Program-made: the position numbers and the translations under genes
Shown here: piece by piece, positions 16,511 to 64,000 of the stretch
Layout: every line of letters starts with the position of its first letter
Numbering within the stretch: position 1 is the first letter of the stretch
Assembly: GCA_050084515.1 (NCBI GenBank)
Contig: CM114271.1
Span: 35,774,001-35,838,000, forward strand
Origin: Blasia pusilla
Taxonomy: Eukaryota
Direction of reading: 5' to 3'
DNA length: 64,000 nt
The notes under the pieces: generated by a model
Database searches by the model: none
What the model saw: the letters and a program-made list of their open reading frames with translations, nothing else
What the model was told of the DNA's origin: nothing

Positions 16511-16529
16511 AGAGGGTTAGTGGTATGTT

Positions 16530-40042: not shown

Positions 40043-40177
40043 ACATCTGGGACACATCCATCGTCCCTGAGGAACCCTAGTGAGAGGTGGTATAAAACAT
40101 GCCATATGCCATCCTCTCGAACACCCATCACATAGTAGCATAGTGGTTGCACCATGGGCGAAACCACACAACACACA
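40043..40177 (-). pseudogene. PHD finger at the integrase C-terminus (copy 2)
   Basis: Manual translation CVLCGFAHGATTMLLCDGCSRGWHMACFIPPLTRVPQGRWMCPRC gives a complete C4-H-C3 pattern. Confidence 0.93.
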
Positions 40178-40186
40178 CCGCAAGCC

Positions 40187-41331: not shown

Positions 41332-41985
41332 TCAACAGCCCGCATCCAATATAGAACCCACCAATAAATCGGAGGGACGCTCCACTCTTGCATGAGCCTT
41401 CCGTAAAACCTCATGTGGTACCAAGTTGGTCCACCAAAGATGCGGGCGGTGTGCTCTAGAACCTACACTCGCCGTATCTAACAACACTGCCGGGCCGATC
41501 CATGCGCGTACTTGATGTGCACTCGTCACCACGCGGGACCTTGAATCGCCCAAAATCGGCACATTCTCCAAAATGTATGTTGGAGAAATAGGCTGATGCT
41601 CATGTAAATGTTTGCAAGATCCGCATCATCTCCCAAAACAACTTGGACCGAGAGTCAGCTAATCTGCTACCCCGTCTAGCACTCGATAGGCCCTGACAGG
41701 GCCAACCAGCAATGACCAAGTCTATGGTCCCTACCCGCTCCAAGTCCTACGCCCCCAACAATGAAATGTCCCTCAGTGGGGAACTCTAGTAACCCTAAAT
41801 GGCGGACGCAGAAAACAAGTCGGGAATACGTAGGCGTAACAACGCCACATGGTAAAGTAAAGCGCGCCTTGCAACATCATCAATCTCCACATACAAGTAT
41901 TGTTGCACAGCCACTCCAACCTGCAAAATAGCAGCTAACCCAATGTTAATCCCTCCAAAGAGATCCAACACCCGAATATCCTTCT
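41332..41985 (-). pseudogene. C5 cytosine methyltransferase domain, motifs I-VIII (copy 2; C-terminus deleted)
   Basis: IRVLDLFGGINIGL, YVEIDD, DLVIAGWPCQG (~41690-41722), ENV, LDTASVGSRAHRPHLWWTN. Confidence 0.92.
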
Positions 41986-42439
41986 CTATGATGCACCACA
42001 CAATCGGGGTGGTGTCCAAAGGGGTCATAGCAGCACTCATGCCTACCTAGGGTTCCTCTGACCCGTTACACTCTAGTGCAAACGTCTCGCTCCACGCGAT
42101 CTACACATGCTCAGTGGCTAAGCGTCAAAACTCCTCAGTCAAGCCCAAAGCGGCATCTCTCCTCCATGGACTGATGCGGCTATCAGGACATTCCTCTCCA
42201 TAGAAATGTCAGGAACGGGAGTATCCTCTACATGGACATGTCTCTCAATCAAATCACAAGGCCAAGTGATGGCACTGCTAAATGCTGCTTAGGTTGCCAT
42301 CTCTCCTAGCCGTCGCTCGATCACTGCACCTGTGAATCAAACAAGTAATGAGCTAAGGTGCCCATGACCTGATTGCCATCCTGGTCTGTAGGACGCTGAC
42401 TCCTCCCAGTAATCCAGGGAAAACTCTATCGGGTATAAC

Positions 42440-44555
42440 AGTGCTCCACCAACAAAGACGTGGTAGGACTCTGCATCAGTCACTATCGCCTTGGCTGCAC
42501 CACGGACTCATCTATAGGATGTCCCGAGAGAATCCTCACCACGACCTCCTATCGGGTAATATACTGTGTGGTACTTGCTCCACCCAAGGATGTCTGTATC
42601 CAGAATGGACAACGTGCCACATCGGCTCTCGTCAAGCCCAATCTTTTGAATGACGCTTTTCCCAGCATCAGGGGTTGCGCTCCTAAATCCAACAAGACGC
42701 GTTGCGGACTAAAAGCTCTACCTCTTGGACTCACCAACTAGAAGACCTCTCCCCGGTTATCTATTAAAACAACACCAAAATAATCCATGGCACGCTCTAT
42801 CGGGGGTCTAGCGGGCATCTCCGCCATCCTACCAGCCGCAGCCTGCCATGAATCTGACATGGACAGCCCGAGTATTAGCTCCAAGGACATGTCCATCACC
42901 TTCTCTGCAATCACCTGTGAACGTGACGCAGGAACTCCAACTCCAAACTCACATAGCGTACCGGCCAGCTGAAAAACCTCGACGGGCGTACTTCCCAACG
43001 TCATAACATCGAAAGAAAAAAATAAAGGAGCGCGGTACATAACGGTGGCCGCCCCCAACAACGTGCTCGACACATGCCCCTCATGAGCATGAGCAATAGG
43101 AGTTGTCGCACTTGTTTCTCCCATTGCCCTCCGTGCGTGCACACCAATAACATCACCAACTCTCCGGGAACTCTGATCAGGACCCATCAATAGGTTCCTC
43201 ATCACCTCAAACAACGTGAAAGACTGAGGAACCTCAATGCCATAGCGGAAATCTGCTCCTATAGCTGCTGTATCTAAGCAACAATCCCAACCTCACGCCC
43301 AACGTCTCTCTCGACGCGTCTAGGTGGTGGGACTCTACCTCCTCCACGGGAAATTCCAATTCGGGCAACTCCAGTTCCTTGTCTCCCAACGGGACCACCT
43401 GCTCCACGATCTCTAGGCCCACCAGGACCGGCTACTCGCTCTGGTGCCCTCTTTGGCCCTCGGTCCAGACGTAACTCGAGGATGTAAACTGAAATACCTC
43501 ATGCATGTGTGACCATACCTCTCATAAAAGTCACACTGATAACCTCCTGGTGCAGCACCATCTCCTCTACCATGCTCAGGCACACGTCCATGACCCTGAT
43601 GAGTGCAATCGCGTTGATGATGGACTCCACCACATGACCAACAAGTAATCATAGGCGGCTCCTACTGAGCTGCATATGAAGAGGCAGGTCTCTATGGCAC
43701 GGCCTCCCGGTATCCTCTCTGAGCTTGTGGTGCCACAGTCAACCTATCTTGGAGTCCACGTTGTTGCACTAGTGATGCAGACAATCGTGACTGCTCTCAC
43801 CCATAACCCATGGTGGCTACGCTCTCCTCCATCATATTGCACTCAATGTTCTCGGCGGTCCTAAAAAAATCCCTCAAGGTAGGGGAGGTGTTCATAAGAA
43901 GCACTCCCTCCCGCACCCATGTCCGTAGGGTCCGATCCAGCATTGCGTACCCTTACTGGATAGTTTGAACCTCTGTCACCCCCTGAGTGACGTTGATCAA
44001 CCGGCACAAGTGAGTGTAAGCCTCACGCAAACTCTCACTCGGGCGCCTCTGGAAGTTGTGGATGCTCCGCAACTTCTCCATCCGTACCCCCTGGTAGCTC
44101 ACCCTCAACTCAGCGAAGAACTCAACCATGGGGTTGAACTTGGGACGAACCTGACTAGACGGTGCAACTGCTCCAATGCGAGTGACCCCTCCTAAAACAT
44201 CAATAGTGGAAGAGGAAGTAGCCTCTCCTGACTCCTCCTCCTCATCTGGGAATGGCTCTGTCCATGACACATAGTGTGGATCATAGTAGAGTCGCCATGC
44301 CTCAATCTCCTGGGCATATCTGTGGGAGAATTCATGGTAATTGTCCATGGGCATCCCCTCTAAATGCTGGAACATACCATTCCATATTGTAAACGGGTAG
44401 AAATCTCCAGAGTTCCTAGCCTCCTGTGAGTCACACCAACTCCTAAACTTTGCAATGAAGTCGTATAGCTCTATAGTGCCAACAGCACCCGAAAACCTAC
44501 ACGGTCCTCTATCCCGGTCGTCCATCTCGTACGCCCAACTGGTAGGATGACTCAA
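42440..44555 (-). pseudogene. gag and aspartic protease region (copy 2)
   Basis: IELYDFIAKFRSWC; zinc knuckles CWSCGGVHHQRDC and CDFYERYGHTC; RVLLDLGAQPLMLG. Confidence 0.85.
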
Positions 44556-45377
44556 TGTGTACGATGGATCACTAACACACTACTCTAGACACTACCCCTC
44601 GTTTGAAGACGACACAGAAGCAGATTGAGGTGGTCTCTTACGTGGACACCCTTGAAACCTCGCACCCCTCTGGGTAAACCCTCTAGAGCTACTCTCAGGT
44701 CCACAACCTTGCCTCTCAAAATCTCGAAAGAACGCCATGATGGCCCTTGTGCCCCTCTCACACAATCACTCTCAATCTCACAAGTAATCCCTCAATCACT
44801 AAAACTAAACATGCGGCACTCAATCTACACTCTCTCACTAAGTCGTGTGGTATACGGCAACAAGCAGCGCAATCCGGAAAATCAAGTGATCTATCGTCTC
44901 ATCGACATCCCACACACGTCTATGTCCCCTAAACCCATACATCATCGATGCTCTTAGCATCAACACGAAACCCAATATCCCAAATAACTTCCCAATATCC
45001 AGAAATCCCTCACACGTGCAAGATAAGGGACTACAATGGATAACCTCACAATAATGTCAATGTCGCTCCTCGATAACTGCAAATCTCGACCCCAACTCGA
45101 TCGTGAAGATAACTCCTCCAATTAGCAAGTCGTACTCCTCTCGTATTGACGTTGCTCAAAACTCCTCAATGTGCGGTGCAGGTTCAGCGGTCCGGTACGG
45201 CACTGGTGGCACAAAACGGCTACAAACGACATGATACTCGGGAATGGTGTGCGGCACTCGGCAGCATATCCTCCTCAATCAGAAATTCACACGCTCTGCT
45301 CCTTAGTAAAGGAGCGGCTCCCCGATCCGAACGGTGCGGTGAGGCCACAAGCGGCACGGTGCGGCGATCGGCGGCGC

Positions 45378-46654
45378 TATGGTATAGTAAAATCAGCCAA
45401 TGTGTAAACTCCTTTCTGGTTAAGTATTAGCTAGAGTTTTATTAGTATTAAGTAAATTAGTTTAGGAAAAGAAAATTCTCATGTTTAAACGTCTTTATGG
45501 TGCCTCTTTTATGCGGGCCCAACTTTAGGAAAAGAGGTAATAAATAAAAGATGACTTTATAAAAGTAAAGTAGTGAGGTTGGTGATTTAATGAAAAGAAA
45601 AAGTAGGTTTGGTTGGTGGCTAGGTTAGTTGGGATAATTTGGAAAATATCAAGTGGGTAAAAGATGATATTTTAGAAGATATAAGAGGAAATCTACTTGT
45701 GTCAAAATATGATTGGCTAAGCCTTGAAAGGAAGCCATATGGCACAAGATAAGTTTAACTCTATTTCGTACTCTTATGGATCTCTTGTGAGTATATAAAG
45801 AGGAGGGACCTTCAAGGGTTCATCACCTTCTATTCCACATTTTGAGTCTTTCATGTCACTCTTGAGTGTATGGCTTTGGGATTGCTTGCTCTTCCAATGA
45901 GAGTGGATCACCCCTCTTGGGAGAGTAGCTTGACCATGGTCTATTCTTCGAGAGATTTCTAGAGTGTGATGTGTGTGTGGAGATGAGTGGTTTGTCACCT
46001 TAGAGGAGTGTAGTCATACTAAAATAATGAATGTTTTGGCTTGTTACTTTCCCAATGAGAGTGGATTACCCTTCTTGGGAGAATAACTCTGCCAAAATCC
46101 ATTCTTGAGGAGAGTAGAGAATGTCTATCAAACATGGATAGGGGTGGAGCACGAATTGTGCCCGACTTTCCTTTCCTCAATCCATACCATGTCAAATATT
46201 CTTTGTAGATAGGCACTGGTTCACTCGCTATTTAGTTTATCACTTTGGGGAGGCGTTCATGAACCAGGTCATTCAATCTCCAACTCCCGTGATCTTTCTT
46301 ATCGTCACATATGGAAGGAGATGGGATTGTACTTTGTATGTTCTTATATAACAATCCATGGACGTCAATAGGCCTGCTCGAGTAGGATTTAACACTAGTT
46401 ATGCTATCTTCCTCGTGTACAAGCGTAAAGTAGTTTATAGGGATTTTATAGTAAGGAATTTCAGGGTCCGATGTTACGAAGAAGTGATCGCCTCGGCACT
46501 TCCATTTGTGATACATGTTGTGAGAGAATGGAGAGTATACATAATAGTCTTGTATTGAAAAAGGAGAACTTCTTAAAGAGTTTACCTTGCATCGACCACG
46601 TCTGCTACAACTAGAAGGCTTGCCCTTACTCGAAGAAAGGCTCTCGACACAACA
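45378..46654 (+). mobile_element. ~1.27 kb solo-LTR-like unit, copy 2, inserted in the leader of gypsy copy 2
   Basis: Absent from the homologous site in copy 1 (~2984, GGCGGCGCGTT). Ends TATGGTATAG...CGACACAACA; flanks GCGC / ACAC. Confidence 0.8.
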
Positions 46655-46944
46655 ACACGTTGCGGCTACGGGCGTCACGGCACGGCACTCGATCGTCATC
46701 AAGCGGCTACCAATCACAACATAGCAACATGAAATGAAAACTCAAACATCATAACCCGAGGTCACGTGCCATCATTGGTTGATGACGAAACTCCAATGAC
46801 GGTGGTGGCCAAACCAAAGTACGTGATGGCGGCGCAAGTCAGAGAATCAGCGGTTGTCGTGGAAGACCCTCCACTCCGTAATGGCGGAAATGGCAACCAA
46901 GGGTGGACAACGACTGAACGCGGCGCTAGGCGGTGGACGATGGA

Positions 46945-47050
46945 AGGTGGACCGTTGACGATGACGGTTGACCGTTGATGATGACGGTTGACCGTTGATG
47001 ATGACGGTTGACCGTTGATGATGATGGTTGACCATTGACGATGATGGTGA
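46945..47050. repeat. 21-bp tandem repeat (GATGACGGTTGACCGTTGATG-like), ~4-5 units, in the element leader
   Basis: Direct reading; fewer, more degenerate units at ~3270-3340. Confidence 0.85.
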
Positions 47051-48217
47051 TGATTGAACGTCGACGGTTGAAGATGACTATGACGACGATCGCCTAGCAA
47101 TGGCAATTTTGCAAGATTGATCATAACTTTTTGTTCGTAACTTTACATTGCACATTGTTTGTTGCAAAGCGTGCACAGCTTCACGATCTACAACGGCATC
47201 AAAAAATATTTTGAATCAAATATTCTAGTAAAAACAAACGGGGACTATCGTAAAGCCCAATGTTTCTCCGACATAAAATTCGGCAACGCTTCCGCGCTGA
47301 TTTCTCCCAACAAAAATGTAAAACCTGTGAGAACACAAATTAGTAAGCTACATGGTGCTCCCAAGAGCACCAGCATGGAAAAATCCGCCCCCATACTCAA
47401 TTCCTATCGAAAATTGGGCAACGCTTCCGCGTGCCACTCTCCCGTACAAAAAATCAGCAAAGCAAAGCAGCAAACTTGCAAGGCTCTTGCTCCAGTGAGC
47501 ACTCCCATGAGCCATGAAGCGGGGAACACGGTCCCCCAACCTGCACCAAACATCGAGCAACCAACGAGCTCTCCATGAAGCTCTCTCACTCACTTATTCT
47601 CTCGTTGTAAAATATGATCCAATCTCTCTCACAACACCATAGTTCTCACATGTGTGCACTCTCACATATCTCTCTCATTGTCAAACCAAACCCACTCTCC
47701 TAATGAGAGGTTTGGGTTACACACACAAGGTAAGCAAGGCCATAGCTCCGTCGCCTCATGCCAAGATGTTCAACAAAGAGAGAATGAGCTCTCAAACTCT
47801 CTCTCCTTGAGGTATACCCCTCCCCTCTCCCAAGCTCTCTCCATGGTAACCTATGCTCCCAAGTTACCTCCTTGGCTCTTGACTTGATGTAGGAGGTCAA
47901 GGGCCACTTACCAAAAATAGAAAGTCGATCATATACTCAAAATGGTACTTATCTAAAATAGTAAGTTCCTCAATATGGCTCCAAACGAACCGAAACGAAA
48001 GGGAAAGCGTGCTCTCTCAGGTTTCTCGAGGCTTCGGTGGGTCATCTCCGACCTACTGAGCTTGTCCTCCACTACTCACAAAGGCGCTCTACTAGATCTC
48101 ACCGATCTATCCTAAAAGACATGACAGCCCACATGAAGATGTCCGTTGCTAGGACGGACATTATTCTACCAACATAGACTTTTTCCATGTGTAACCTTGC
48201 CAATATATCGTTGACAT

Positions 48218-51400: not shown

Positions 51401-52642
51401 ACATAGGCCATTTTTGGAAACTAGGCTAACTTTTAGCTTTATAAAACTCCAATTTCTTCATGGGCCCCACTACACTATGAAAAGCTTAACAAACAAAGTT
51501 ATGTGGTTTATCTAACTTGCCACTTTCACTACTCCTTTTTAATACATTGTCTCCCAATCTTCATACTATTATGGGCTAAGCTTTCAACTACACCACAAAT
51601 CCTATGCTAATTTGAAATTAGCTTAAGTAATTTGTAAGAGTTGACTTTATTTTGGCTCTATACTTCCTTGCTTTTCCTTAGAGTTATGTGTTAGAACCAC
51701 AAAGGAGTGGGATCATTTATGGTTGGGTACCTAAAACATACTTTGGAATGACATACTTCACTTTTACAAAACGTCTCATATGCCCATGTAGCAAAGAGTA
51801 AGATGAAATCAACTTGTTGGAATCTACTGTCTCTATTCATGGGATAAGCTCTATCCATATTCACTTATGATCATATGGAAACTAGGTTGGGAGGATGTGT
51901 TAGTCCATAAAAGAGTGTTACAAGAATTTTCTCTTTTAGGATGAGATAATTTCAAGAGAAAGATATTGTGGCGAAAGGGGTGCTAATCTAGATTAAAATT
52001 CTTCAAGAAATTGTATTATTGATGGTGATAAGTTTAAATGAAAACTAATAATAATTTTAAAAAAATTTAAAGAATTTTTTATCTTATTAAGCTAGCGGAG
52101 GCCAATTATCATGTGACCAAGATAATAATTTTCTTATTGCATGTGACAGAAAAAAAAATCTTGTTATCCTATTACCTTAAGTCAAGCACAGAGTTATTTT
52201 ATTTGAAATAGAAATGATTTTATAGCATGGGAAACTTCTACAATAAAAGAAAAAAATAGAGACATCACAAGATATATCATAATAGAGGTGACGACAATAG
52301 GGAAGTAAATTTTTGTCACTATAAGTAGTTACATAGTAATTTAAATATCTATTTATATTTCATGACTATTCTTTGTAAAAAAGGTTATTTAAAAAAAAGC
52401 TTTTACAACTAAGTGGGGAAGGTAGATAACTTTAATTGATATGGAAGATAATTTTACAAATTTATTATTTTTAAGTCAAGGAAAAAAATTGGAATTTAGT
52501 TTATTTAAAAAAAATTAATATCTAATTTTATAGCAATCCTTGTAATATTTTGATTTGAGAACAAATGGATCATTAAAAAACTAGAACATTTTCTTTTTTT
52601 CAGTATCAGTTTATCACATCTTAATTAGTTTGGGTGCAACTC

Positions 52643-53784
52643 TGTCATAAGGTGGCAGATGATGTTAACGACATGTCCGTTGCGTTCGGAGTGTCGTTTC
52701 TATCAAATCCCTTTTTTTGTCATTTTTGGCGAGGTGACCCATTGACTGAGTCAATGGTTACCCAATAACATGTGCACGGAGGTTACCATTTGGAGGCTAT
52801 TTTTTGAGGAACAGGCTTTTGGCTCTTCCCAAAGCTATAGGAGAGGGAGAGATGGCTTTCCCAAGCCATCTTTATCATGTTGAGCCTTACGAGCACCTCT
52901 CTTGCTTCTGTGTGTATAGGAACTAGGGTGCTAGTGTCCCGATTCCCTCATAACGGAGGATGGATGAGGCTTGATAAGATGATGTAGATTCGAGAGTGGA
53001 GTTGGCCGTGTGAGCTATTTTTACTCCAATCTTACATAAGAAAGATGCAAGGGGGAAGGGGGGAATTTGTTGTATGTAGGTAGGCAAGTGAGTTGCCTTG
53101 GTGGTGAGCCCTTCAAAGTGATGGTTAGTGTTTGTGTTGTCATTGTATTTTACCACTTGTCAAAGGAGACAGAGAATATGCACCCAATGCAACACTCTTC
53201 ACTCGCATTGATCATTTGGAGCAGAGGATTGCTGCCATGACGATGATGGAACTAGTGATAGGTACACAGTTGAGATAGCTAATTTAGTTCCAACCTCCAC
53301 TTTGTATCTTGATACGGGGAAGGATTATGCGTGTTAGAGGTTTATGAGTAGTGGGGCTCAAATCAAGGTTGTTGCGATGGTGACTCGAGGTGTTGTGAGA
53401 GTGACCGAGCTACATAGAGATGGGGTTGAGATAGTCGCACAAGAGGGCGCTGATGGGCGACATATTAGGGTTCCCGAGTTTTTTACGTTGTCAAAGAAAC
53501 TACAAACATCATCGATGGTGCCTAGACGACCTATAGTGCCCACAAGTAAGGCAGGTGCGTCGACGTCAAGAGGAGTTGGAGAGACGACTCTTAGGCTCGG
53601 GTGGAGCCACTAAGCTAGTGTCAACCACGTTGTTGGAGGTGGCCACGAGGATGAGCCAAGATTTTTTGATTTTGGCTATGGACTTGGCGGCGATGGGAGT
53701 TAGTCCAGCGGAGGTGTTTCGATTGGTTGCCACTCTCTGTGAGCATGGAGAAGTGACTGCCTCTCGTTTGGAGGTGGTAGACCT
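52643..53784 (+). mobile_element. Older DNMT-gypsy family copy, left part (A-like repeat plus gag-end); interrupted by copy 3
   Basis: Starts TGTCATA; A-like sequence to ~53050; reads ...EVFRLVATLCEHGEVTASRLEVVDL at the break. Confidence 0.8.
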
Positions 53785-55377
53785 TGTCACATCTGAGTAG
53801 CCGATAGGCCGAGATCTATCGTGGACAGGGTGTAGGAGCCAACAGACTATCTTGAGTGTAACTTCGTCCCACGGTGTCGGATGAGGTTGAGGATAGGTCC
53901 ATTGTGTTAGGAACGTTGTTTCTGACAACCTTCATGTTGAGGTCTTTCACAGCCGGGTGGCTTGTTGACCAGGTCATCCACCCCTGGTAACCTGTGCGTG
54001 CAGGTTACCAAGGGGAGGGCTATTTTTAGGGGAAGAGCCTTTTGGCTCTTCCCAACCCTATATAAGAGAGGAAGGTGGCTTTCCTAAGCCATCTTTCTCA
54101 TGTTGGGTCGTTGGAGCACCTCTCTTGTATGTGTGTGAGATATGACTAGGATGCTAGCGTCCGGATTCCTTGATAGCGTAGGGCGGACGAGGCTCGATAT
54201 GCCGATGTAAATTGAGGAGTGGAGTTTTAGGCCGGGTGTGCCGTTTTTACTACTCTTTATTTTTACATGAGAAAGATGTTAGGGGGCTGGTGGAAATTCG
54301 TTGTTTGCAGGTAGGCAAGCGAATTGCTTTGGTCGGGAGCCCCTGGAGACGTGTGTGTTGCGGGTGTTGGTCATTTTCCTGTTCGAAAGGCCGTGGGCGG
54401 AAGCGCTGTCCATTTTTCTCAAAGTTTGCTGGTGCACATGGATTGAGGACAGTGGCAGAGTGTAGTACGGAGTGGGATGGCGACTTTATTGTTGAGAGTA
54501 GCGAGAGTGTCAAGAAAGAGCATGAAGGAAAGGTTGTAGAGGCAGAGGCGGCCAGGGTGCAGAGGCGTTTAGGTCACAGAGGTGCGGAGGTGTTTAGGTC
54601 ACATTTAGGTTGGAGAGGCGGCCGGCTGCAGAGTCGCACAGTGTGGGAGGCGCGCATAGGGCTGCGCGCCCCCCACAAAAATAAAGAGTAGTAAAAACCG
54701 AACACCCGGCCTAAAACTCCACTCCTCAATCTACATTGGCATATTGAGCCTCGTCCGCCCTGCGCTATCAAGAAATTCGGACGCTAGCATCCTAGTCCTA
54801 TCTCACACACATATAAGAGAGGTGCTCCAACAGCCCAACATGAGAAAGATGGCTTAGGAAAGCCACCTTCCTCTCTTATATAGGGCTGGGAAGAGCAAAA
54901 AGGCTCTTCTTCTAAAAATAGCCCTCCCCTTGATAACCTGCGCGCACAGGTTACCAGGGGCGGATGGCTTGGTCAACAAGTCACCCGGCTGTGAAAGACC
55001 TCAACATGAAAGTTTTCTGAAACAACATTCCTGACACAATGGACCTATTCTCAACCTCATCCGACACGGTGGGACAAAGTTACATTCAAGATAGTCCGCT
55101 CGCTCCTACGCCCTATCCACGATAGATCTCGGCCTATCGGCTACTCAGATGTGACAGCTGTCGTGCGCATACCTATCGCTACACAACATACATCGCTAGT
55201 CACATCTACACCACACAACACTGATCTTCCTCACACACGGGTCGATCCACACATGTACAAAATCAACTCACACATATACATGGAGATCACACAACCGCCC
55301 CCCTAGCTGGCAGTAGGATCCCCCCAACTCCAAATAGAAAAAATCACATCTCTCTGACATGACCTACTACCCTATAC

Positions 55378-55512
55378 ACATCTCGGACACATCCATCATC
55401 TTGTGGGAACCACATCAAGAGGGGGGGTCAGACATGACATATGCCACCCTCGAGAACAACCATCACATACCAACCTGGTGGCTGCACCCCTCGCAGATCC
55501 GCACAACATACA
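55378..55512 (-). pseudogene. PHD finger at the integrase C-terminus (copy 3)
   Basis: CMLCGSARGAATRLVCDGCSRGWHMSCLTPPLDVVPTR*WMCPRC. Confidence 0.92.
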
Positions 55513-55560
55513 CCTCAAGCCTGCAGGTAACCACTGCCAAGCTCGGATCCACCATCCCAT

Positions 55561-56700: not shown

Positions 56701-57049
56701 CCTCCCACCTGAACCTCCTGGCTCTCTGTAGGATCCGATCCCGCTACCTGGCACTCACTATGCTCGCTATGACGCTAGTGCGCAAGAACTCCACAACCTC
56801 CACGTCGTCATGGATATCACGACCACCTGTCGCCTCCTCACTGACCTCCGGATCCAAAGACTCATCATCCAACCCCACCATTGGAGTCATCACCTGTAGC
56901 TGACGTGCCATAGTCAACCAACAAAGATAGGCATATGCATGCCAACCGGGCACCATCTCCTCATCACTCTCTCCATCGAGCTCCTGTGTCGTCTCTCTGA
57001 CTCGGACATGGGTTATGACTCAACTCATCCGCATCCTGGTTCAGCCAAC

Positions 57050-58400
57050 CTGGCCTATCAACCACCTCAAACCCATACTCTTGTAGTAATAGAGCCCACC
57101 TGCCAAGCTTTCCCGTAAGCTTGGCGGACTCCATCAACCACCTCTACGGCTGATGATCAGTGGTAAGTGTGAAAGGGTTGCTGAATAAATAGCACCTGAA
57201 ATGTGCCATGGCCCACACTGCAGCCAAGCACTCTCCCTCGTAGGAGCTGTACTTCGCCTCTGCAATGTTGTTCAATTGGCTCGCGTAAGCCACAATGAAC
57301 TCCCTCTCCCCGTCATCCCTCTGAGTAAGCATTGTTCCTAGATCCAACATGCTCCAATCTATATGTAACTAGAATGGGCGACCCCTAACCGGTCTCTATA
57401 AAATGGGTGAGGACGTCAACCTGTCCTTGAGATCCTGAAATGCTCGCTCCTCATCATCTCCCCACAACCAAACCTGATCAAGTCTCGTCAATAAGGTCAA
57501 AGACTTTGAGATCGCACTAAAACCCTTGACAGACCATCGATAGAAGTTCGCCAGTCCAAGAAATGCTCAAAATCGACTCATATCTGTAGGGCGTGGAAAT
57601 TGTGCAATAGCCTCTACCTTCGTCTGCTGAACGCCTAATCCACTCGGGTATATGGTGTGTCCCAAGTACTCAATCTACTCCTGAAATAATCTGCACTTGC
57701 CTGGATATAACTTCAGTCCATGTAACTGCAATCTCCAAAACACCTCCTCCAGGTGTCGCTCATGCTCCTCAACCGTGGAACTAAAGATAAGAATATCATC
57801 TATGTAACATTGTACAAACTCCAAGCCAGCCAGAATCCTATCCATCACTCTCTGAAACTCTGCAGGCGTGTTCTTCAACCCAAATGGTAAGAACCGCCAC
57901 TGATACAAGCAATCTCTCCCGAACCGATCTATCCCCCAGAATGTTGTCTTCCTCCTTGTCCTCCAACTTGATAGGAAGCTCATGATAGCCAACACAAAGA
58001 TCTAAAGTACTGAAGATCTTTGCATGCCCTACCGCATCAAAGATCTCCTCAGGAGTAGGCATGGCATACCGATCTGACCTCGTCTGTCGGTTGATAGGAC
58101 GTTAATCTCCACACATCCGCCTATCCGTCCAATTGTCATACATATCCTTCTTTGCCGGCATGACTCGGGCAGATGCATACTCCCCATGTGATAACTCCAC
58201 AAGTCCTGACTCCTGCTCTGAATTAAGGCTCGCTCCATATCCGAATACGTGTAGGGTCGACGAAAGATCGACGTATCACTAGCCAACTCAATCCGTATCC
58301 CAGGATCCTTCAGCGTATCCAAGTCTCTCATATTGAAGGCAAAAAAATTGACATGCCCTCTCAGAAACCTATGAACTCGCCGTCGCTCTCCTCCTATCAA
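57050..58400 (-). pseudogene. Reverse transcriptase and RNase H (copy 3)
   Basis: MPTPEEIFD..FSTLDL..GYH, LPFGLKN, YIDD (~57800), VAYAS..YSSYEGECLA, TDHQP. Confidence 0.95.
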
Positions 58401-58759
58401 CTTGAGACCTATCATAGGCTCCCAAGTCTCCATCGTGACCTCACTTGATGAGGACGCAACCTCCAGATTTGGTTGCTATGTAGCAACCCTAGCCACCTCC
58501 GCAATAGCCACCTCCGCAATAGCCACTCCACGGTGACCTCCTAGACCATGCTCCACATCCAAAAAATGAACATGTGTTACTCTAGCCGCCTTTGCACTCT
58601 CTGCTCAAACGACGTCCTAGGAAGTCCATGGGTGCCTATCTCTCCTCGTCTCGCCCCCAGCTAATGCCTGTACAGACCCTGTAGGCAATGGTCTAACTTG
58701 TGGACGTAACAGCATGGATGACACTCGTATCCGTCTCTGCTCAGCCATACCTAGGCTGA

Positions 58760-59700
58760 CTATCCATGTGAGACAGTTGAGGACCATCACCTGCCCCAAC
58801 ACCTCTCTTCGGGATGTCTAAGTCATCCCTGGAACCGCCGTAGTAGCGGTAGCAAACCCCATGGCGCGCTCGCGCTCATCTGCTGTAGGCTCCTCCAATG
58901 CTCCGGTCACCTCATCCCAAATCATGCCTGGCCCTCCTTGACGAAAGGCATGGGATGCTGGGAAGCTCACCAACATAGGTAAGGCTGCCCTCAACTCCCC
59001 CACCCTATTGGCCATGGCCAACGGTGGTCTATCATCCTGTGTCACCACCTGAGATTGTCGTCCTGAGCCCCAAATTGCATCCACTATGAGATGTGGTGCT
59101 CTCTGGACTCCATCGTATGCTCGACTCAGTACCTCTGATGGTATCCGGTTTGTCCACCACAGTCGTGGACGATGGGCACGTGATCCAACTCTCGACGCAT
59201 CTAGCAACACAGCAAGTCCCAACCAGGACCTCACCTGATGCACACTCGTCATCACACGTGCATGAGTGTCTCCCAACAACGGCACGTTCTCCAAAATGTA
59301 CGTTGGAGAACATGTCTGACTCTCCTGCAAGTGTCGTACTACTCGCAACATCTCCCAAAACATCCCTGACCTCGGATCGTGCAATCCAAATCCTCGGCCA
59401 GTTGATGAATGACCCTGACATGGCCATCCAGCAATCACCAAATGAATGGTGCCAACTCTATCCAGATCCTACCCCCCAAAGAGATGTCGGCGGGTAGTGT
59501 ATGCTGATATCCCCGTATTGTGGATACCGGCAACAACTCAGGAGACCTCTGGACCAATCTCGTCACGTGACATATTGATACTCGCCACACGGTCTCATCT
59601 ATCTCCACATAATGGTACTTATGCACCCGTATGCCCGCCTGCAATACTACAGCCAATCCGGTGCTAATCCCTCCGAAGAGATCTAACACCCTAACACCCT
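58760..59700 (-). pseudogene. DNMT3-like C5 cytosine methyltransferase domain, motifs I-X (copy 3)
   Basis: VRVLDLFGGISTGL (I), YVEIDE (II), IAGWPCQGHS (IV), ILENV (VI), LDASRVGSRAHRPRLWWTN (VIII), ERERAMGF (IX), VLGQVM (X). One frameshift near 59440-59480 and a stop at 58818. Confidence 0.95.
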
Positions 59701-60059
59701 CCTCTGGGCACTCCCACACAACGGGTGTCGTATCTAGTGGGGTCAACGTCTCCACTCCAAGAGCCCGATTGCCACGTGACTCTCGCTGCTCCGAGATAAA
59801 GGCATGACTCCACGCCTGCCTCACGAGGTCTTCGACACTCCTTTGTAGCTCTCAAGTCGTACCCCACAATGGTGAAGAGGTCTCGCCAACATGGGAAGAG
59901 ACATCCGCCATGGCCTGTCTCTCTGTGGGACTATCCGCTACTGGGACATCCTCCGTATGTGCATTCCCCTCCAACAACTCTCTTGGCCAGCTAACACTAC
60001 CTGTGAAAGCTGCCAACGTGGTCATAGACTCGCCTCGTGATCGACCACCTTATCCCGCA

Positions 60060-62461
60060 AACTACACGGGTAATTGACTCATCCGCCCGTCACCTGACCG
60101 CCACCCTGGCCGATAAGCAATGATCTCCTCCCAAAAGACAAGGATGAATCCTTGGGGATATAACACTGAACTCCCCACAAACACATCGTACGACTCAGCT
60201 GGTGTCGTAATCGCATGTGTGCGCACCATAGCACTATCCGTTGCATGCTCTGGCTGGACTCTAATAACTATCTCTTGCCGAGTCATATATTGCGTGGGTG
60301 ACACACCCCCAATCGAGGTCTGTATATGGAAGACAAGGCTCAATGTCGGCCTTCCGTAACCTCAACGCTAAACACACCGCCTTCCCTAACATCAAGGGTT
60401 ACGCTCCCGAATCAAGTAGGACGCGCTGCGTGTGTTATACCGTCCCCGTCGGACTAACCAAGCAAAATACTCTAGCTCGGTTATCCAGTAGCACTATCCA
60501 AGTGTCACCACTGCTCGCTCTATGGCCGGTCGAGCTAGCATATCTACCAACTTTGCCGCCGCCGCATGCCATGACTATGTGGGGAACGTCCCAAGCACCG
60601 GCTTTGAGGGCAAGTTCACCACCTCCTCAACTACCTATGAACAAGAAACCATCACCTCTCCACGCTCACACAACGTGGCGGCCAGCCGGAACACCTCAGC
60701 TGGTCCAACTCCCAAGGTCGCCAACTCTATGGCGGAGAATAGTGGAGTCTGACTCACTCTGGTGGCCACCTCCAACACTATGGTCGATATTGACTCCACT
60801 CGAGCCGGCATAGGAGTTGTCACTCCAACTCCTCGTGATGTCGACGCACCTGCTAGAGCTATAGGCACCGCTGGTTGTCGAGGCACCATCGATGGTGTGT
60901 GTAGTGCCTCCAACAATGAGAATGACTGTTGAACCCTGGCCTGCCGCCCATCAGTCCCCTCTAGTGGGTCAATCTCAACTCCACCTCTCGATGGCTCGGT
61001 GCCTCTCGCAGAACTTTGAGTCACCACTGTAGCTGCCTCAACCTAGGCTGCACTACACATAAACCCCATACTGGAGAGATCCTCACCCCGGTCAAGGTAA
61101 GAGGTAGAAGCTGGAGCCACACTAGCTGCTCGCGGCTCCATGCCTTCCCTGAGCTCTATCATCGTCATGGCAGCAATCCTCTGCTCCAACTCATCGATGC
61201 GTGAGAGAAGTGTCGGCTCTAGTTCTCCTACTCCATCTCCTTTGGCTGGTGGTGGTCCTCTACCACCACGTCCAGGAAGAACTCCCCAACCTCCTCCAAG
61301 ACGACCGCCCCCAGGCCCTTGGCCTACCTCTTGGTGTGCCTCTCGGTGAAGGTCAAAACACCTATCCCTACTGTGACCATATCTATGGCAATAGTCACAC
61401 TGGTGTTGTGGTGGGGCCATCCTCTGTGGCTCCTTAGCAATCGGAGGTGCTCGTGGTCCTCTCCCATGCTGTGGGGAGTCTCTCTACCTATGGGCCCCTC
61501 CACACGTCCAACAAGACCACATCGGTCCCTGCTGGGCAACATATGTAGGTACGGGTCGTTGCCTCATAGGCTCACGGTACCCGCCCTGCTCTCTGGGCAC
61601 ACCGGCCCGCTCCCGTGGTACTGGTGCTCGCTGTGGCACCTGTGGGGTCATCAGCGCTCATGGACCCGTCGACTCTCAAGAAAATCCTGCGGTCACTACC
61701 TGCTCCTCACTCATGTTGAGCTCAATACCCTCAGACAACTCGAAGACCACCTTCAATGTGGGCTCTGCTGTGTGAATCAGCACCGCATCCCGAACTCTCC
61801 TCCGTAGTTCTCAATCCAGAACCCTGTACCAATACTGGATTGACTGCGCCTCAGTCACTCCATACGTAGCAATGATCAGCCTCCTCATATGTGTGAATGC
61901 CTCTCTCAGACTCTCACCCGATTGTCGCTAAAAATCTCGTAGACTCTTCAGCTTGTCGATGCGTACGCCTTGGTAGCTCTTCCCCAACTTTCGGAAGAAC
62001 TGCACTGTGGGGCTGAAGCTAAGTGGCCCTCTACCACCAGAGATCTCTGCCACATCCCCTGTCTCACTGCCCTCCTCTCCATCTAGTCTCCGGGCTGATG
62101 GTGTGGGTCTCTCTCCTCTCACAATCCCATCATATGCCTCGCGACCACTACTAGACACATATCTTGGAGCCCAATACATCCTCCAAGCATCGATCTCTAT
62201 TGAATATAGTGATCAAAACTCCATGTAGTCATCCATCGGAGGACCCTCCAAGTGCTGGAACAACCCTTGCCATGCCATGAAAGGGTTGAACCGTGTCGGG
62301 GTCCGTATCTCCTGGAAATCGCACCACGTGTCGAACTCCTGGATAAAATCATCTAAGTCCATGATGCCCATTTGCACCCAAGAAACGACGCATGCCCCGA
62401 TGGCCCATGTCGTCCATCTCCTGCCAAGTACTACTATCTCTGTCTGCGATCTTGTCACCAT
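60060..62461 (-). pseudogene. gag and protease region (copy 3)
   Basis: MDLDDFIQEFDTWC; zinc knuckle CDYCHRYGHSRDRC; RVLLDSGA*PLMLG ~60385-60430. Confidence 0.85.
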
Positions 62462-63717
62462 ACCCAGTGTCTAGTGATGATGATCTTGTCACGGATGGAT
62501 GTCGAGGTAGCTTTTTTTTGGTAACCCCTCGGTATCTCACTCCACTCTATGTCACACCACCACCACTACTCGCACTACCCCGTTCTTCCGAACCTTGGAA
62601 GAATGCCGTGATGACAAACCGTGTCTCACCCGCTCAAGCACTCAGACTCACCGAGAGTCTCCCACACTCCTCACTAGCTCACCTATGCTAACATCAATCC
62701 TGTGATGACATACCCGGCCTCACGCACACTCAACACTCGGGCTCACCATGAGCCTCCCAACTGCCTCACCTAACCTAGCGACACTCTCTCGGGTCATACA
62801 CGCGACCCCTACTCGGCAACCACCGTATATCCACCAACATGCTACACATGAAAAGAATCTACACTCATCACCATCACTGCACCCATCTAGCACCAACTAC
62901 TACCCGATACCCAGCACTCTCAATCACACACGACAAGTGCACAAAAGGGACTCGAATGGGTAACCTGATAACGCCCTCCAACCTACTGCACCGTCAACAT
63001 CCACTCCTCCACATGATATGACAACCTCCGCAACACCACACTCTCCTCAACCAACATGTGAAACCTCCCGTCAGTGTAGGTTCGTGTGTCCCCATCACAA
63101 CCCTCGCAATTCCCAGTCGGTGAAGAACTAATGAGTCGTCCTCCAACCTACTCGTAACGACCGACAAAGTCCTATCGCAAATCCCATCCACGCTCGCGAG
63201 ACACTAAGTCCTGCAAAACTCTCCACTGCGTAACCGAATTCAACCACGTCGGACCCCAACCATGTCTTCCCTTATGACTACGTCCGACTTTACCATGTCA
63301 CTCCCGTCAATTGTGGTACCATGTCGGACTGCCCTACCACGTTCAGCCCCTGCAACTCCACCACATCCACTCGGCCCTGACCACATCCACATGTGCCATA
63401 CCACGTCCATCACGGTGCCCTATGCACCTCCTTAAATGCGAAAAATGGGGGAGGAGGAACCTGGCCCACGGCCCTATGCAGGCCTCCCTTAGTACGGGAA
63501 AGGGGGGCGTGCGGCCCTATGCGTGCCTCCCACATTGCGGGGAGGGGGGGGGGGATTTAGGGTTTAGGTGCGCGCATGTGTTGTGTGATCTCCATGTATA
63601 TGTATGAGTTGATTTTTGTACATGTGTGGATCGACCCGTGTGTGGGGAAGATCGGTGTTGTATGGTGTAGATGTGACCAGCGATGTATGTTGTGTAGCAA
63701 TAGGTATGCGCACGACA

Positions 63718-64000
63718 GCCTGCCCTCGGAGCATGTACGCGGTATGTCCCCCACTCGATCATGGCAAGTTTTGGCGGCGAAGTTGATGGATATGCCATCT
63801 TGACCAACCATAGAGTGATCCATGATGACACCAGATATAGTATTGCTGGACAATTGAGTTGGAGTCTTTTGCTTGGTTAGTTCAATAGGTACGTTGTACC
63901 ATCCAAAGTGCGTTCTACGGGTGCGCAACCCTTGATGTTAGGAAAGGTGGTGTGTTTGGTGTTTCGGACATGAAATATTGAGCCTTGTCCCTTTCAGATA
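63718..64000 (+). mobile_element. Right continuation of the older copy interrupted at 53784
   Basis: Rejoining gives GTG GTA GAC CTG CCC TCG GAG (VVDLPSE), followed by family sequence SWQVLAAKLMDMP. Confidence 0.85.

What the first reader, a model, noticed from the sequence alone, without database searches (positions are those of the whole stretch)
58760..59700. Gypsy-like retrotransposon with a DNMT3-like cytosine methyltransferase inside pol, between protease and RT
Seen: C5-MTase motifs I, II, IV (catalytic PC), VI (ENV), VIII, IX and X in unpermuted order, co-oriented between protease and RT. The same domain sits at the same position in two other copies (41332-41985; start at ~18510), so it is a family trait and not a one-off capture. 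Known: the motifs closely resemble DNMT3 (IRVLSLFDGIATG; IDAKEVSAAHRARYFWGN; EMERVFGF). Retrotransposon-borne DNMTs were reported in dinoflagellates and charophytes (de Mendoza et al. 2018, from recall). Inference: a land-plant lineage of elements that may methylate its own cDNA or its insertion site.
Basis: partly seen in the sequence, partly recalled or inferred. Interest (0 to 1): 0.92.

Follow-up and report, generated by a model that had tools for sequence, protein, structure and literature searches.

The report
Methyltransferase-carrying Gypsy retrotransposon, bryophyte-type family
This is a dead copy of a jumping gene whose family carries its own DNA-methylating enzyme; such elements were known from one green alga, and close relatives turn out to be common in liverworts and mosses.

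Summary
On the minus strand, 58740-59725 encodes an unpermuted C5 cytosine methyltransferase domain (Pfam PF00145, E 2.7e-9). It lies between protease and reverse transcriptase of a Ty3/Gypsy-like element. This copy is broken by a frameshift and in-frame stops. Two other copies in the window carry the same domain.

A family profile and a predicted fold both match DNMT3A/3B/3C best. The kind is already published as KnitGypsy-Dnmt3 of the alga Klebsormidium (de Mendoza 2018).

What I add:
- The closest named relatives (60-70% identity) are Marchantia polymorpha (19 protein models), Calypogeia, Riccia and Sphagnum.
- In this lineage the domain ends a gag-protease-DNMT frame. A conserved in-frame stop (TAG/TAA then CAA/CAG) separates it from RT-RNaseH-integrase-PHD.
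- The terminal repeats are arranged A-coding-B-A-B, with TG..CA ends and 4-bp target duplications. The paper reports this odd arrangement for the alga.
- Stranded RNA reads and roughly 200 copy-equivalents show the family is transcribed and abundant in the source organism.

Catalytic activity and target remain untested. I could not place Klebsormidium sequences in a tree. Verdict: new member of a known kind, moderately interesting.

The parts
58740..59725 (-). DNMT3-like C5 cytosine methyltransferase domain of copy A (motifs I-X). Broken by a frameshift near 59435-59468 and an in-frame TAG at 58818-58820.
   Evidence: PF00145 E 2.7e-9; sequence; tblastn with the Marchantia domain, 68% identity
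58476..58478 (-). Family-conserved in-frame stop (TAG followed by CAA CCA) between the gag-PR-DNMT frame and the RT-RH-INT-PHD frame. Both frames are the same reading frame. Candidate programmed read-through site.
61043..62371 (-). gag of copy A: N-terminal region 61523-62371 and CCHC knuckle region 61043-61483
   Evidence: alignment by eye with Marchantia P0123
59939..60553 (-). Aspartic protease region of copy A (LLDSGA at about 60413, then a stop)
   Evidence: Asp_protease_2 in relatives
57528..58409 (-). Reverse transcriptase of copy A (several frames)
   Evidence: RVT_1 E 2.7e-19
56979..57527 (-). RNase H of copy A
   Evidence: tblastn with Marchantia P0127 RNase H part, 62% identity
55564..56743 (-). 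Integrase of copy A (HHCC zinc domain, DDE core, C-terminal part)
   Evidence: Integrase_H2C2 E 2.2e-15, rve E 1.6e-11
55390..55540 (-). PHD finger at the end of pol, copy A (interrupted by a stop)
   Evidence: translation; same domain intact in copy B with PF00628 E 3.7e-12
55295..55304 (-). G-rich polypurine tract directly upstream of repeat B1
   Evidence: same position in L048 and L063
55159..55294 (-). Terminal repeat B1 of copy A (ends in CA at 55159)
54675..55156 (-). Terminal repeat A2 of copy A (starts with TG at 55156). The expected B2 after it is missing.
39249..48127 (-). Copy B. Repeat A1 47627-48127, gag about 43653-44510, PR 42214-42830, DNMT 41317-42097, integrase 40271-41311, PHD 40040-40186, B1 about 39751-39885, A2 39249-39749. 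RT and RNase H are deleted. A foreign 1.45-kb insert lies at about 45210-46658.
16527..18899 (+). Copy C, internally deleted. A-like repeat 16527-16920, gag, PR (DSG at 17784), N-terminal part of DNMT 18356-18630, B repeat 18670-18899 ending in CA.
1..4445 (-). Copy D, cut by the window start. PR 1-321, gag 1324-2179, leader, repeat A1 3949-4445. No DNMT part lies within the window.
52630..54342 (+). Fragment E of the same family (A-like repeat, gag piece, A repeat), tail to tail with copy A
63580..64000 (+). Fragment F (B repeat 63580-63719, then a protease piece) that interrupts or bounds the 5' side of copy A

Best explanation
The finding is the methyltransferase domain of a decayed copy of a streptophyte 'Gypsy-DNMT3' retrotransposon.

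Shown. The family's plan is: repeat A, then gag(CCHC)-protease-DNMT3-like methyltransferase, then an in-frame stop, then RT-RNase H-integrase-PHD finger, then a polypurine tract and repeats B-A-B. Ends are TG..CA and the target duplication is 4 bp. The catalytic motifs are kept across the family. The family is abundant and transcribed on the sense strand in the source organism. Close relatives fill liverwort and moss genomes.

Inferred.
- The stop (UAG/UAA followed by CAA or CAG) is read through at low frequency.
- Gag-PR-DNMT would then be the abundant product and RT-RH-INT-PHD the rare extension.
- The methyltransferase would be made in Gag-like amounts, probably released by the protease.
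- It would be well placed to methylate cytosines of the element's own new DNA, or DNA at and around the integration site. The PHD finger would steer integration by reading histone tails.

I put about 0.9 on the identity and architecture. I put about 0.45 on the enzyme being an active DNA C5-methyltransferase acting on the element's own DNA.
For: Identity of the domain:
- PF00145 on the window's domain.
- PF00145, RVT_1, RNase H, Integrase_H2C2, rve and PHD on the intact relative L054. Its protease match (Asp_protease_2, 22.4 bits) is just under the cut-off of 24.3.
- All the same domains except PHD in one 2188-aa protein, P0219; its Asp_protease_2 match (22.0 bits) is likewise just under the cut-off.

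DNMT3 likeness:
- The family profile scores DNMT3A 2.5e-20, DNMT3B 8.6e-20, DNMT3C 3.9e-19, DRM 4.6e-12, M.HaeIII 6.9e-8, DNMT2 1.8e-7 and DNMT1 0.78.
- The fold model's listed Foldseek hits are all DNMT3A/B/C, E about 1e-13, TM to target mostly 0.6-0.68 for methyltransferase-domain chains and 0.35-0.46 for longer chains.

Family trait:
- Three copies in the window carry the domain.
- 169 of 707 and 73 of 1669 candidate proteins are relatives.
- 441 of 524 metagenome stretches are relatives.

Constraint:
- 58 invariant columns across 12 sequences of 42-85% identity, including F-G-I (I), PCQ (IV), ENV (VI), H..R (VIII) and ERE (IX).
- Window copies A and B differ at 26% of non-synonymous but 71% of synonymous sites over 230 DNMT codons. 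For PR the values are 37/79 and for gag 39/75.

Conserved stop:
- 38 of 45 lineage-1 sources have TAG (26) or TAA (12) followed by CAR-YYN at the same place.
- DNMT and RT share a frame in L054, L004 and window copy A.
- In 12 of 39 sites the frame is uninterrupted from motif X to the stop.

Repeats, ends and target duplications.

Expression:
- Three RNA runs give 12-28x with the first mate on + over 54600-58512, against 0-8x on the other strand.
- Over the gag-PR-DNMT part the depth is mostly 2-7x.
- Most reads are 90-95% like copy A, so they come from sister copies.

Copy number: DNA depth is about 1000 against about 5-6 for reads at least 99% alike.
Against: - No activity was measured here. 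In the paper the Klebsormidium domain gave no methylation in yeast, a result the authors call inconclusive.
- Motif IV is PCQ and motif X is GQ, unlike DNMT3A in the alignment.
- The window fragment alone matched only bacterial M.HaeIII and M.HhaI, at E 0.006.
- Pairwise dN/dS among mostly dead copies is higher for DNMT (median 0.55) than for RT (0.40) or RNase H (0.41), though lower than for protease (0.64).
- Only 6 of 80 loci keep an uninterrupted domain.
- RNA cover is 3-5 times lower over gag-PR-DNMT than over RT-INT.
- Read-through is inferred from conservation only. The common context CAA CCC does not fully fit the tobacco-mosaic-type CAR YYA rule, which I cite from recall.
- The fold model is only moderate (pLDDT 62.2).
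- CpG depletion of the copies (o/e 0.57-0.73) is what any methylated transposon shows, so it does not point to self-methylation.
Confidence: 0.75

Rival explanations
1. The domain is kept but is not a DNA methyltransferase in the element's life cycle. It could be a structural or DNA/RNA-binding module of the Gag-PR polyprotein, or it could methylate RNA (genomic RNA or the primer).
For: - The Klebsormidium domain showed no DNA methylation in yeast.
- In the sister architecture RT-RH-DNMT-INT, 77 of 135 aligned proteins have another residue, mostly Glu, in place of the motif IV proline, and 96 lack ENV.
Against: - In the window's own architecture, 55 of 81 aligned proteins keep PC and 63 keep ENV. 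The cysteine is kept even where the proline is not.
- All SAM-binding and catalytic motifs are invariant in alignment A2.
- The nearest solved relatives are DNA enzymes (DNMT3A/B/C), not the tRNA enzyme DNMT2.
Confidence: 0.17
2. The enzyme is active but works in trans on host chromatin, not on the element's own new DNA. It might lay gene-body-like CG methylation to escape non-CG silencing, or mark the neighbourhood of insertions.
For: - The paper discusses such interplay with the host epigenome (abstract, section 9).
- Gag-level production would give much free enzyme.
- A PHD reader sits in the same element.
Against: Nothing here separates cis from trans action. The enzyme has no reader domain fused next to it. 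Copies are CpG-depleted like ordinary silenced transposons.
Confidence: 0.2
3. Chance juxtaposition: a host DNMT3 pseudogene fragment trapped between unrelated transposon pieces.
For: The region is a nest of fragments, and copy A is broken in many frames.
Against: - The same order and frame recur in three window copies.
- They recur in single annotated Marchantia proteins.
- They recur in intact L054 and in P0219.
- They recur in dozens of loci.
Confidence: 0.01

Closest known systems
KnitGypsy-Dnmt3 of Klebsormidium nitens (de Mendoza et al. 2018, PMC5890265; I read the abstract, sections 9 and 10, and passages with figure legends)
   Same: - A Gypsy-type element with an unpermuted Dnmt3-related domain in the polyprotein.
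- Conserved catalytic residues and purifying selection.
- Intronless copies.
- Repeats arranged as in DIRS elements. The legend of Fig. 1 defines this as A-coding region-B-A-B, and the legend of Fig. 4 says the Klebsormidium element has the same. I found that arrangement here.
   Different: - The host is a land-plant relative set (Marchantia, Calypogeia, Riccia, Sphagnum by name).
- The main text does not mention Marchantia, Physcomitrella, a PHD finger, a stop codon between domains or read-through.
- I could not see Fig. 4c or the supplements, so the alga's domain order and ORF breaks are unknown to me.
- No Klebsormidium-named protein appeared in three searches, so common descent is not shown by a tree.
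SymbioDIRS-Dnmt3 of Symbiodinium (same paper)
   Same: A Dnmt3-type domain in a retroelement with A-coding-B-A-B repeats. Two of its domains methylated CG de novo in yeast.
   Different: It has a tyrosine recombinase and DIRS-type pol. Here there is a DDE integrase with HHCC domain, TG..CA ends and 4-bp target duplications.
Green-algal RT-RH-DNMT-INT-PHD Gypsy elements (unnamed in print as far as I searched). Named examples in the protein search: Monoraphidium neglectum MNEG_11595 and Cymbomonas tetramitiformis CYMTET_8324.
   Same: The methyltransferase domain is homologous (38-48% identity to P0188; 40-41% between P0188-type and the window). Both have a PHD finger after integrase.
   Different: The domain sits between RNase H and integrase, and motif IV is often E-C instead of P-C. 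In the tree the two architectures separate with 98% support.
EpiLTRs of Cymbomonas and Euglena (bioRxiv 10.64898/2026.05.21.726589; passages read)
   Same: LTR elements that carry a cytosine methyltransferase plus a chromatin reader.
   Different: Their DNMT is reported as sister to DNMT4 and appended at the 3' end of pol, together with an adenine methyltransferase and a chromodomain. The authors state it is distinct from 'streptophytes (Gypsy-DNMT3)'.
Animal DNMT3A/3B/3C catalytic domains (solved structures)
   Same: Best sequence-profile and fold matches; unpermuted motif order.
   Different: About 20% identity. Motif IV is PCQ, not PCN. The segment between motifs VIII and IX is longer (profile positions 202-290 against chain residues 173-236). 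There is no PWWP or ADD next to the domain.

Membership tests
Ty3/Gypsy (Metaviridae) LTR retrotransposons | pol order protease - RT - RNase H - integrase, with gag upstream | tested here: met
   The extra DNMT lies between PR and RT.
Ty3/Gypsy (Metaviridae) LTR retrotransposons | DDE integrase with HHCC zinc domain; TG..CA ends and a short target duplication | tested here: met
   Integrase_H2C2 and rve. TG..CA ends and 4-bp duplications (AAGG, GGTC) in L048 and L063. In the window the TG and CA ends are seen at 55156 and 55159. No window copy has both ends, so no duplication could be read there.
Ty3/Gypsy (Metaviridae) LTR retrotransposons | Two identical long terminal repeats, one at each end | tested here: not met
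   The repeats are split: A at the 5' end and B-A-B at the 3' end. This is seen in L048, L063, L056 and L072/L073. It is consistent with the window copies and with read joints and loose ends.
Gypsy-DNMT3 of streptophytes (KnitGypsy-Dnmt3) | Unpermuted Dnmt3-related domain within the element's polyprotein, key residues conserved | tested here: met
Gypsy-DNMT3 of streptophytes (KnitGypsy-Dnmt3) | DIRS-like repeat arrangement A-coding-B-A-B with Gypsy domains | tested here: met
   paper legends
Gypsy-DNMT3 of streptophytes (KnitGypsy-Dnmt3) | Purifying selection on the DNMT domain (paper: Ka/Ks below 0.2) | tested here: inconclusive
   Median dN/dS is 0.55 over 1628 pairs of mostly dead copies, against RT 0.40 and PR 0.64. 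For window copies A and B, pN is 0.26 against pS 0.71, which is saturated. Copies with an uninterrupted domain gave only 2 usable pairs.
Gypsy-DNMT3 of streptophytes (KnitGypsy-Dnmt3) | Clusters with the Klebsormidium element sequences in a tree | not testable with these tools
   No Klebsormidium sequence could be obtained: none was named, and the supplements are closed.
DNMT3 clade of C5 methyltransferases | Closest to DNMT3 among methyltransferase classes | tested here: met
   Profile against PDB and Foldseek. This is a ranking among solved structures, not a phylogeny.
DNMT3 clade of C5 methyltransferases | Placement inside DNMT3 in a tree with plant DNMT3, DRM, CMT and MET1 | not tested
All of the best 150 representatives scored E 2.5e-65 or better; of the 74 that are at least 900 aa, 73 carry retroelement domains.
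DNMT3 clade of C5 methyltransferases | Motif IV P-C-N and motif X G-R/N, as in DNMT3A | tested here: not met
   The family has GWPCQG and LGQ. DNMT3A shows GSPCND and LGRS in the alignment.
DIRS / Ngaro / PAT-like elements | Tyrosine recombinase instead of DDE integrase | tested here: not met
   Pfam on L054 ORF2 and on P0219 finds rve and Integrase_H2C2, and no tyrosine recombinase family.

The most novel reading that the evidence does not exclude
A green-lineage-wide clade of integrase-bearing Gypsy elements with split repeats carries a DNMT3-like enzyme and a PHD reader. In bryophytes the enzyme has moved into the Gag-protease frame ahead of a programmed read-through stop, so it is made in capsid-like amounts. 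These elements are still transcribed and run to hundreds of copies. They would then be an overlooked, transposon-encoded source of de novo cytosine methylation in land plants, including the tractable model Marchantia. The A-coding-B-A-B layout may mean that integration uses a palindromic B|A junction inside a circular two-LTR intermediate.
Probability: 0.25. Interest if true: 0.75.

Novelty: new member of a known kind. Interest (0 to 1): 0.5.

Why it matters
Retrotransposons that carry the very enzyme class hosts use to silence them are a known curiosity. What the enzyme does for the element is still open: the only streptophyte example tested gave no activity. Close relatives turn out to be numerous and already annotated as 'hypothetical proteins' in Marchantia polymorpha, and present in mosses. 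That moves the question into organisms with transformation, genome editing and published methylomes.

The conserved stop before RT gives a concrete, testable expression logic: enzyme abundant, polymerase rare. The split repeats with integrase-type ends pose a clean mechanistic puzzle about how such elements are copied and inserted.

For annotation, these protein models should not be counted as host DNMT3 genes in surveys of plant methylation machinery.

Tried and rejected
- Whole-genome analysis: no genome is held for this window.
- Identifying the organism. The ESM Atlas search with the window's N-myristoyltransferase gave only broad eukaryotic clusters. Organism names of sequencing runs are coded. 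The scan's notebook has nothing on this genome or sequence.
- The look-up of sequencing runs: no RNA holder listed.
A2, without fragments, worked.
- The single-fragment search of solved structures gave only weak bacterial hits. It was superseded by the profile search.
- Inverted terminal repeats, DIRS1 style. The 140-bp inverted match 55157-55295 / 63580-63719 turned out to be a B repeat of another fragment, not an end of copy A.
- Canonical-LTR reading of copy B (503-bp direct repeats, 90.3%). It was replaced by the A-coding-B-A-B reading once L048 and L063 showed the second B. In window copies A and B the last B is missing. I cannot explain that beyond truncation.
- dN/dS restricted to uninterrupted domains gave too few pairs: 2 for DNMT.
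- Looking for Klebsormidium relatives by name in three protein searches found none.
- Literature searches for bryophyte or Marchantia elements with a DNMT. Passages were read in PMC12344493, PMC11982613, PMC6453930, PMC9033089, PMC6673714, 10.1101/2021.02.12.428880 and 10.64898/2026.05.21.726589. No statement of such elements in land plants turned up. Two papers say 'streptophytes' while citing the 2018 work. Supplements, which may list Marchantia sequences, could not be read.
- In the second, more distant lineage (L062-L080) I looked for the same stop and found none in 14 loci. L063 instead has a TAG before the DNMT. That is single-locus evidence and was not pursued.
Full report
**What is there.** The window's last 10 kb holds, on the minus strand, a retroelement copy (copy A) whose reading frame is broken into many pieces. 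Pfam finds four domains on its ORF pieces:
- DNA_methylase PF00145 on 58818-59468 (E 2.7e-9, 37.4 bits against a cut-off of 22)
- RVT_1 on 57675-58001 (2.7e-19)
- Integrase_H2C2 on 56390-56743 (2.2e-15)
- rve on 56066-56389 (1.6e-11)

Of the 10 pieces scanned, 4 passed a curated cut-off. The N-terminal methyltransferase piece (59435-59851) and the protease piece (60062-60361) gave nothing by themselves.

Reading the sequence shows these motifs:
- motif I: VRVLDLFGGISTG
- motif IV: GWPCQG
- motif VI: ENVP
- motif VIII: AHRPRLWWTN
- motif IX: ADERERAMGF
- motif X: VLGQ

They stand in that order. A frameshift near 59435-59468 and an in-frame TAG at 58818-58820 interrupt them. The protease active site LLDSGA lies at about 60413 and is followed by a stop.

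With Marchantia domains as queries, tblastn maps copy A as follows:

| Domain | Coordinates |
|---|---|
| gag | 61523-62371 |
| PR | 59939-60553 |
| DNMT | 58740-59725 |
| RT | 57528-58409 |
| RNase H | 56979-57527 |
| integrase | 55564-56743 |

The copy is dead.

**Other copies in the window**.
- Copy B (39249-48127, minus strand) has gag, PR, DNMT (41317-42097) and integrase, but lacks RT and RNase H.
- Copy C (16527-18899, plus strand) keeps gag, PR and only the first part of the domain.
- Copy D (1-4445, minus strand) is cut by the window start.
- Two further fragments lie at 52630-54342 and 63580-64000.

Protein identity between copies is 47-80%, so these are old, diverged subfamilies. 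The domain is a family trait.

**Which methyltransferase class.** The 216-aa fragment alone matched only bacterial M.HaeIII and M.HhaI, weakly (E 0.006; 16 matches up to E 1, none DNMT3). A profile of 16 family sequences (A1) gave this ranking:

| Solved structure | E-value |
|---|---|
| DNMT3A | 2.5e-20 |
| DNMT3B | 8.6e-20 |
| DNMT3C | 3.9e-19 |
| plant DRM | 4.6e-12 |
| M.HaeIII | 6.9e-8 |
| DNMT2 | 1.8e-7 |
| DNMT1 | 0.78 |

An AlphaFold model of an intact relative (P0129 with alignment A2) is of moderate quality (pLDDT 62.2, pTM 0.68). All its listed Foldseek hits are DNMT3A/B/C catalytic domains, with E about 1e-13 and TM to target mostly 0.6-0.68 for methyltransferase-domain chains and 0.35-0.46 for longer chains.

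So 'DNMT3-like' is supported as a ranking among solved structures. It is not a phylogeny, because I had no host plant DNMT3, DRM, CMT or MET1 sequences to build one. Differences from DNMT3A visible:
- PCQ instead of PCN in motif IV
- GQ instead of GR in motif X
- a longer stretch between motifs VIII and IX

**Relatives.** The fragment finds 169 relatives among 707 candidates of similar length and 73 among 1669 longer proteins. None is above 70% identity. The named ones are:
- Marchantia polymorpha: 18, 1
- Calypogeia fissa: 5
- Sphagnum troendelagicum: 2
- Sphagnum fallax: 1
- Riccia sorocarpa: 1
- Marchantia paleacea: 1
- one 2.4-kb contig labelled as a bacterial bin

Marchantia P0123 (1278 aa) reads gag-CCHC-protease-DNMT. 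P0127 runs from DNMT into RT and RNase H. A library-wide profile search counts 13,895 representatives at E up to 1e-3, 2,797 at 1e-10 and 479 at 1e-30.

Among the best 150, 74 are at least 900 aa:
- 66 show the order RT-RH-DNMT-INT or parts of it.
- 7 show PR-DNMT(-RT), as in the window.
- 1 shows DNMT only.

A search with the RT-RH-DNMT-INT type (P0188) finds 113 proteins. Almost all have a PHD finger. The named ones are from the chlorophytes Monoraphidium and Cymbomonas, plus the Marchantia proteins. No protein named Klebsormidium appeared in any of the three searches.

In a quick maximum-likelihood tree of 40 domain rows, window copies A and B pair (SH-aLRT 90). The pair sits inside a fully supported clade of 20 rows. 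That clade holds every named bryophyte row. Marchantia, Calypogeia and Sphagnum each form their own cluster, and the two architectures split with 98% support. The window's organism is thus probably a bryophyte-grade land plant, but it is not one of the named species and I could not identify it.

**Expression plan of the family.** The metagenome scan returned 80 loci (441 of 524 matched stretches were relatives). Most are decayed. Uninterrupted domains are rare:

| Domain | Uninterrupted / loci with a hit |
|---|---|
| DNMT | 6 of 80 |
| RT | 7 of 58 |
| PR | 4 of 69 |
| RNase H | 5 of 45 |
| gag | 1 of 39 |

L054 is intact. ORF1 (976-5082, 1369 aa) carries CCHC, protease and DNA_methylase. A single TAG follows. 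ORF2 (5086-8226, 1047 aa), in the same frame, carries RVT_1, RNase H, Integrase_H2C2, rve and a PHD finger.

The stop is conserved in place. Of 81 sources, 59 had a pre-RT match. Among the 45 of the window's lineage, 38 have TAG (26) or TAA (12) followed by CAA or CAG and a pyrimidine-pyrimidine codon. None of the 14 loci of a more distant lineage does. Window copy A has it at 58476-58478 (TAG CAA CCA), in the same frame as the methyltransferase C-part and the pre-RT ORF. Of 39 such sites, 22 have motif X in the same frame upstream and 12 are uninterrupted from motif X to the stop.

Many relatives of about 1330 aa end 120-175 residues after motif IX, which fits the same stop. I infer programmed read-through. 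A glutamine codon after UAG is the hallmark of the tobacco-mosaic-type context, which I cite from recall. This has not been tested.

The consequence is that protease and methyltransferase are made with Gag, and RT-RH-INT-PHD only as a rarer extension.

**PHD finger.** pol ends in a PHD finger in window copy B (40040-40186, PF00628 E 3.7e-12), L048 and L054. Copy A has it with a stop inside. PHD fingers in retrotransposons are known (passage in PMC6673714). Their pairing with a DNMT in this family is not mentioned in the main text of the 2018 paper.

**Ends of the element.** In L048 the repeats are A1 1676-2017, B1 10238-10350, A2 10350-10691 and B2 10693-10805. In L063 they are A1 3615-3906, B1 12286-12461, A2 12463-12754 and B2 12755-12930. 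L056 and L072/L073 show the two B copies. Other features:
- A starts with TG and B ends with CA.
- The outer flanks carry 4-bp duplications (AAGG in L048, GGTC in L063).
- A G-rich polypurine tract stands directly before B1.

The window fits this. Copy A has the tract at 55295-55304, B1 at 55159-55294 and A2 at 54675-55156. Copy B has A1 at 47627-48127, B1 at about 39751-39885 and A2 at 39249-39749. Copy C has an A-like repeat at its 5' end and B at its 3' end. The last B is missing in A and B, and I cannot explain that beyond truncation.

Genomic reads of the source organism show the A-end to B-start joint (317 reads for the main form). They also show unrelated AT-rich flanks at the A start and the B end.

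This A-coding-B-A-B layout is what the 2018 paper describes for SymbioDIRS and, by reference, for KnitGypsy-Dnmt3. It is my strongest link between the window's family and the published one.

A reading I offer as inference only runs as follows. The reverse-transcription repeat is B-A, bounded by the polypurine tract and the primer site. The integrase ends lie at the palindromic B|A junction. The integrated form then looks like a two-LTR circle opened inside one repeat.

**Activity of the family in the source organism** (reads laid at 88% likeness or more).

DNA:
- Depth is about 800-1900 over the element, against about 6 in the last bin.
- Only 330 of 65,402 laid reads are 99% alike or better.
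- I read this as roughly 150-200 copy-equivalents. This is a rough inference.

RNA:
- In three RNA runs, reads whose first mate lies on the + strand give 12-28x over 54600-58512 and mostly 2-7x over 58513-63027.
- The other orientation gives 0-8x.
- With the usual stranded chemistry this means RNA of the minus strand, the element's sense strand.
- Most RNA reads are 90-95% like copy A, so sister copies are the ones transcribed, not this one.
- Copy A also differs from most genomic reads by private indels.

**Selection and composition.** Pairwise Nei-Gojobori dN/dS, with dS between 0.1 and 1.5, over 80 loci and the window copies:

| Domain | Median dN/dS | Pairs |
|---|---|---|
| DNMT | 0.55 | 1628 |
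| gag | 0.48 | 335 |
| PR | 0.64 | 739 |
| RT | 0.40 | 610 |
| RNase H | 0.41 | 365 |

Neutral decay of dead copies inflates all of these. The domain behaves like the element's other parts, somewhat less constrained than RT. Between window copies A and B the domain differs at 26% of non-synonymous and 71% of synonymous sites, and is the best kept of the three regions that could be compared.

Motif IV in aligned proteins:
- Window's architecture: 55 of 81 keep P-C, 16 have another residue before the Cys (mostly Glu) and 10 have a gap.
- RT-RH-DNMT-INT type: 57 keep P-C and 77 do not. The Cys is kept.

Copies are CpG-poor (o/e 0.57-0.73) with TG/CA excess (1.18-1.37). The neighbouring host gene shows 0.92 and 1.0. 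This is expected for any methylated transposon.

**What is known.** De Mendoza et al. 2018 describe Dnmt3-related domains in the Pol ORF of a Gypsy element in Klebsormidium nitens. They report conserved residues, Ka/Ks below 0.2 and DIRS-like repeats. They found no detectable activity in yeast and call that result inconclusive. Two later papers refer to 'streptophytes' when citing it. My searches and the passages read found no main-text statement of such elements in bryophytes, nor of the stop, nor of the PHD pairing. Supplements were closed and may hold such data.

**Verdict.** This is a new member of a known kind, extended to land plants. The added anatomy comprises the Gag-frame position ahead of a conserved stop, the PHD finger, and the split repeats with integrase-type ends. 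Function remains inferred.

Noticed in passing
L048:1676-10805 and L063:3615-12930; window 54675-55304 and 39249-39885: A DDE-integrase Gypsy element with split direct repeats A-coding-B-A-B, TG..CA ends, 4-bp target duplications, and a polypurine tract directly before the first B. The B|A junction is palindromic (...CATGACA GC TGTCATG...). The integrated form looks like a two-LTR circle opened at that junction. How such an element is copied is unexplained.
   Followed up: partly
window 40040-40186 (-), 55390-55540 (-); L054:5086-8226: A PHD finger ends the pol frame after integrase (PF00628, E 3.7e-12 in copy B). The element therefore pairs a DNA methyltransferase with a histone reader.
   Followed up: partly
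proteins P0188, P0389, P0418 and 60-odd representatives: A sister architecture, RT-RH-DNMT-INT-PHD, is much more diverse in the protein libraries. Named examples come from the chlorophytes Monoraphidium and Cymbomonas. In 77 of 135 aligned members motif IV reads E-C (GWECQD) instead of P-C, and ENV is often ENT or ENA.
   Followed up: partly
L062-L080 (for example L063:6753-10517, L077:5542-8969): A second PR-DNMT-RT lineage, 36-41% identical, comes from the same metagenomes and lacks the stop after DNMT. In L063 a TAG lies before the DNMT instead. In L077 the DNMT frame overlaps the upstream frame with a shift. The break between frames may have moved during evolution.
   Followed up: no
window 9186-10958 (+): A host gene for N-myristoyltransferase stands as one uninterrupted 590-aa frame (PF01233 E 1.7e-76, PF02799 E 1.2e-75). 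It has a 200-aa N-terminal extension and no visible intron, which is unusual for a plant gene.
   Followed up: no
window 35161-36472 (+): Fragments of a Copia-type element (Retrotran_gag_2, gag_pre-integrs). The window as a whole is a nest of transposon pieces.
   Followed up: no
window 58212-58813 (-): RNA depth falls 3-5 fold at about 58500, close to the conserved stop at 58476-58478, although DNA depth stays level. The cause could be a subgenomic or 5'-truncated transcript, or greater divergence of the expressed copies in the 5' half.
   Followed up: no
protein P0153: A 2.4-kb contig carrying this eukaryotic retroelement domain is filed in NCBI under a bacterial metagenome bin (Candidatus Obscuribacterales). 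It is probably a mis-binned plant contig.
   Followed up: no
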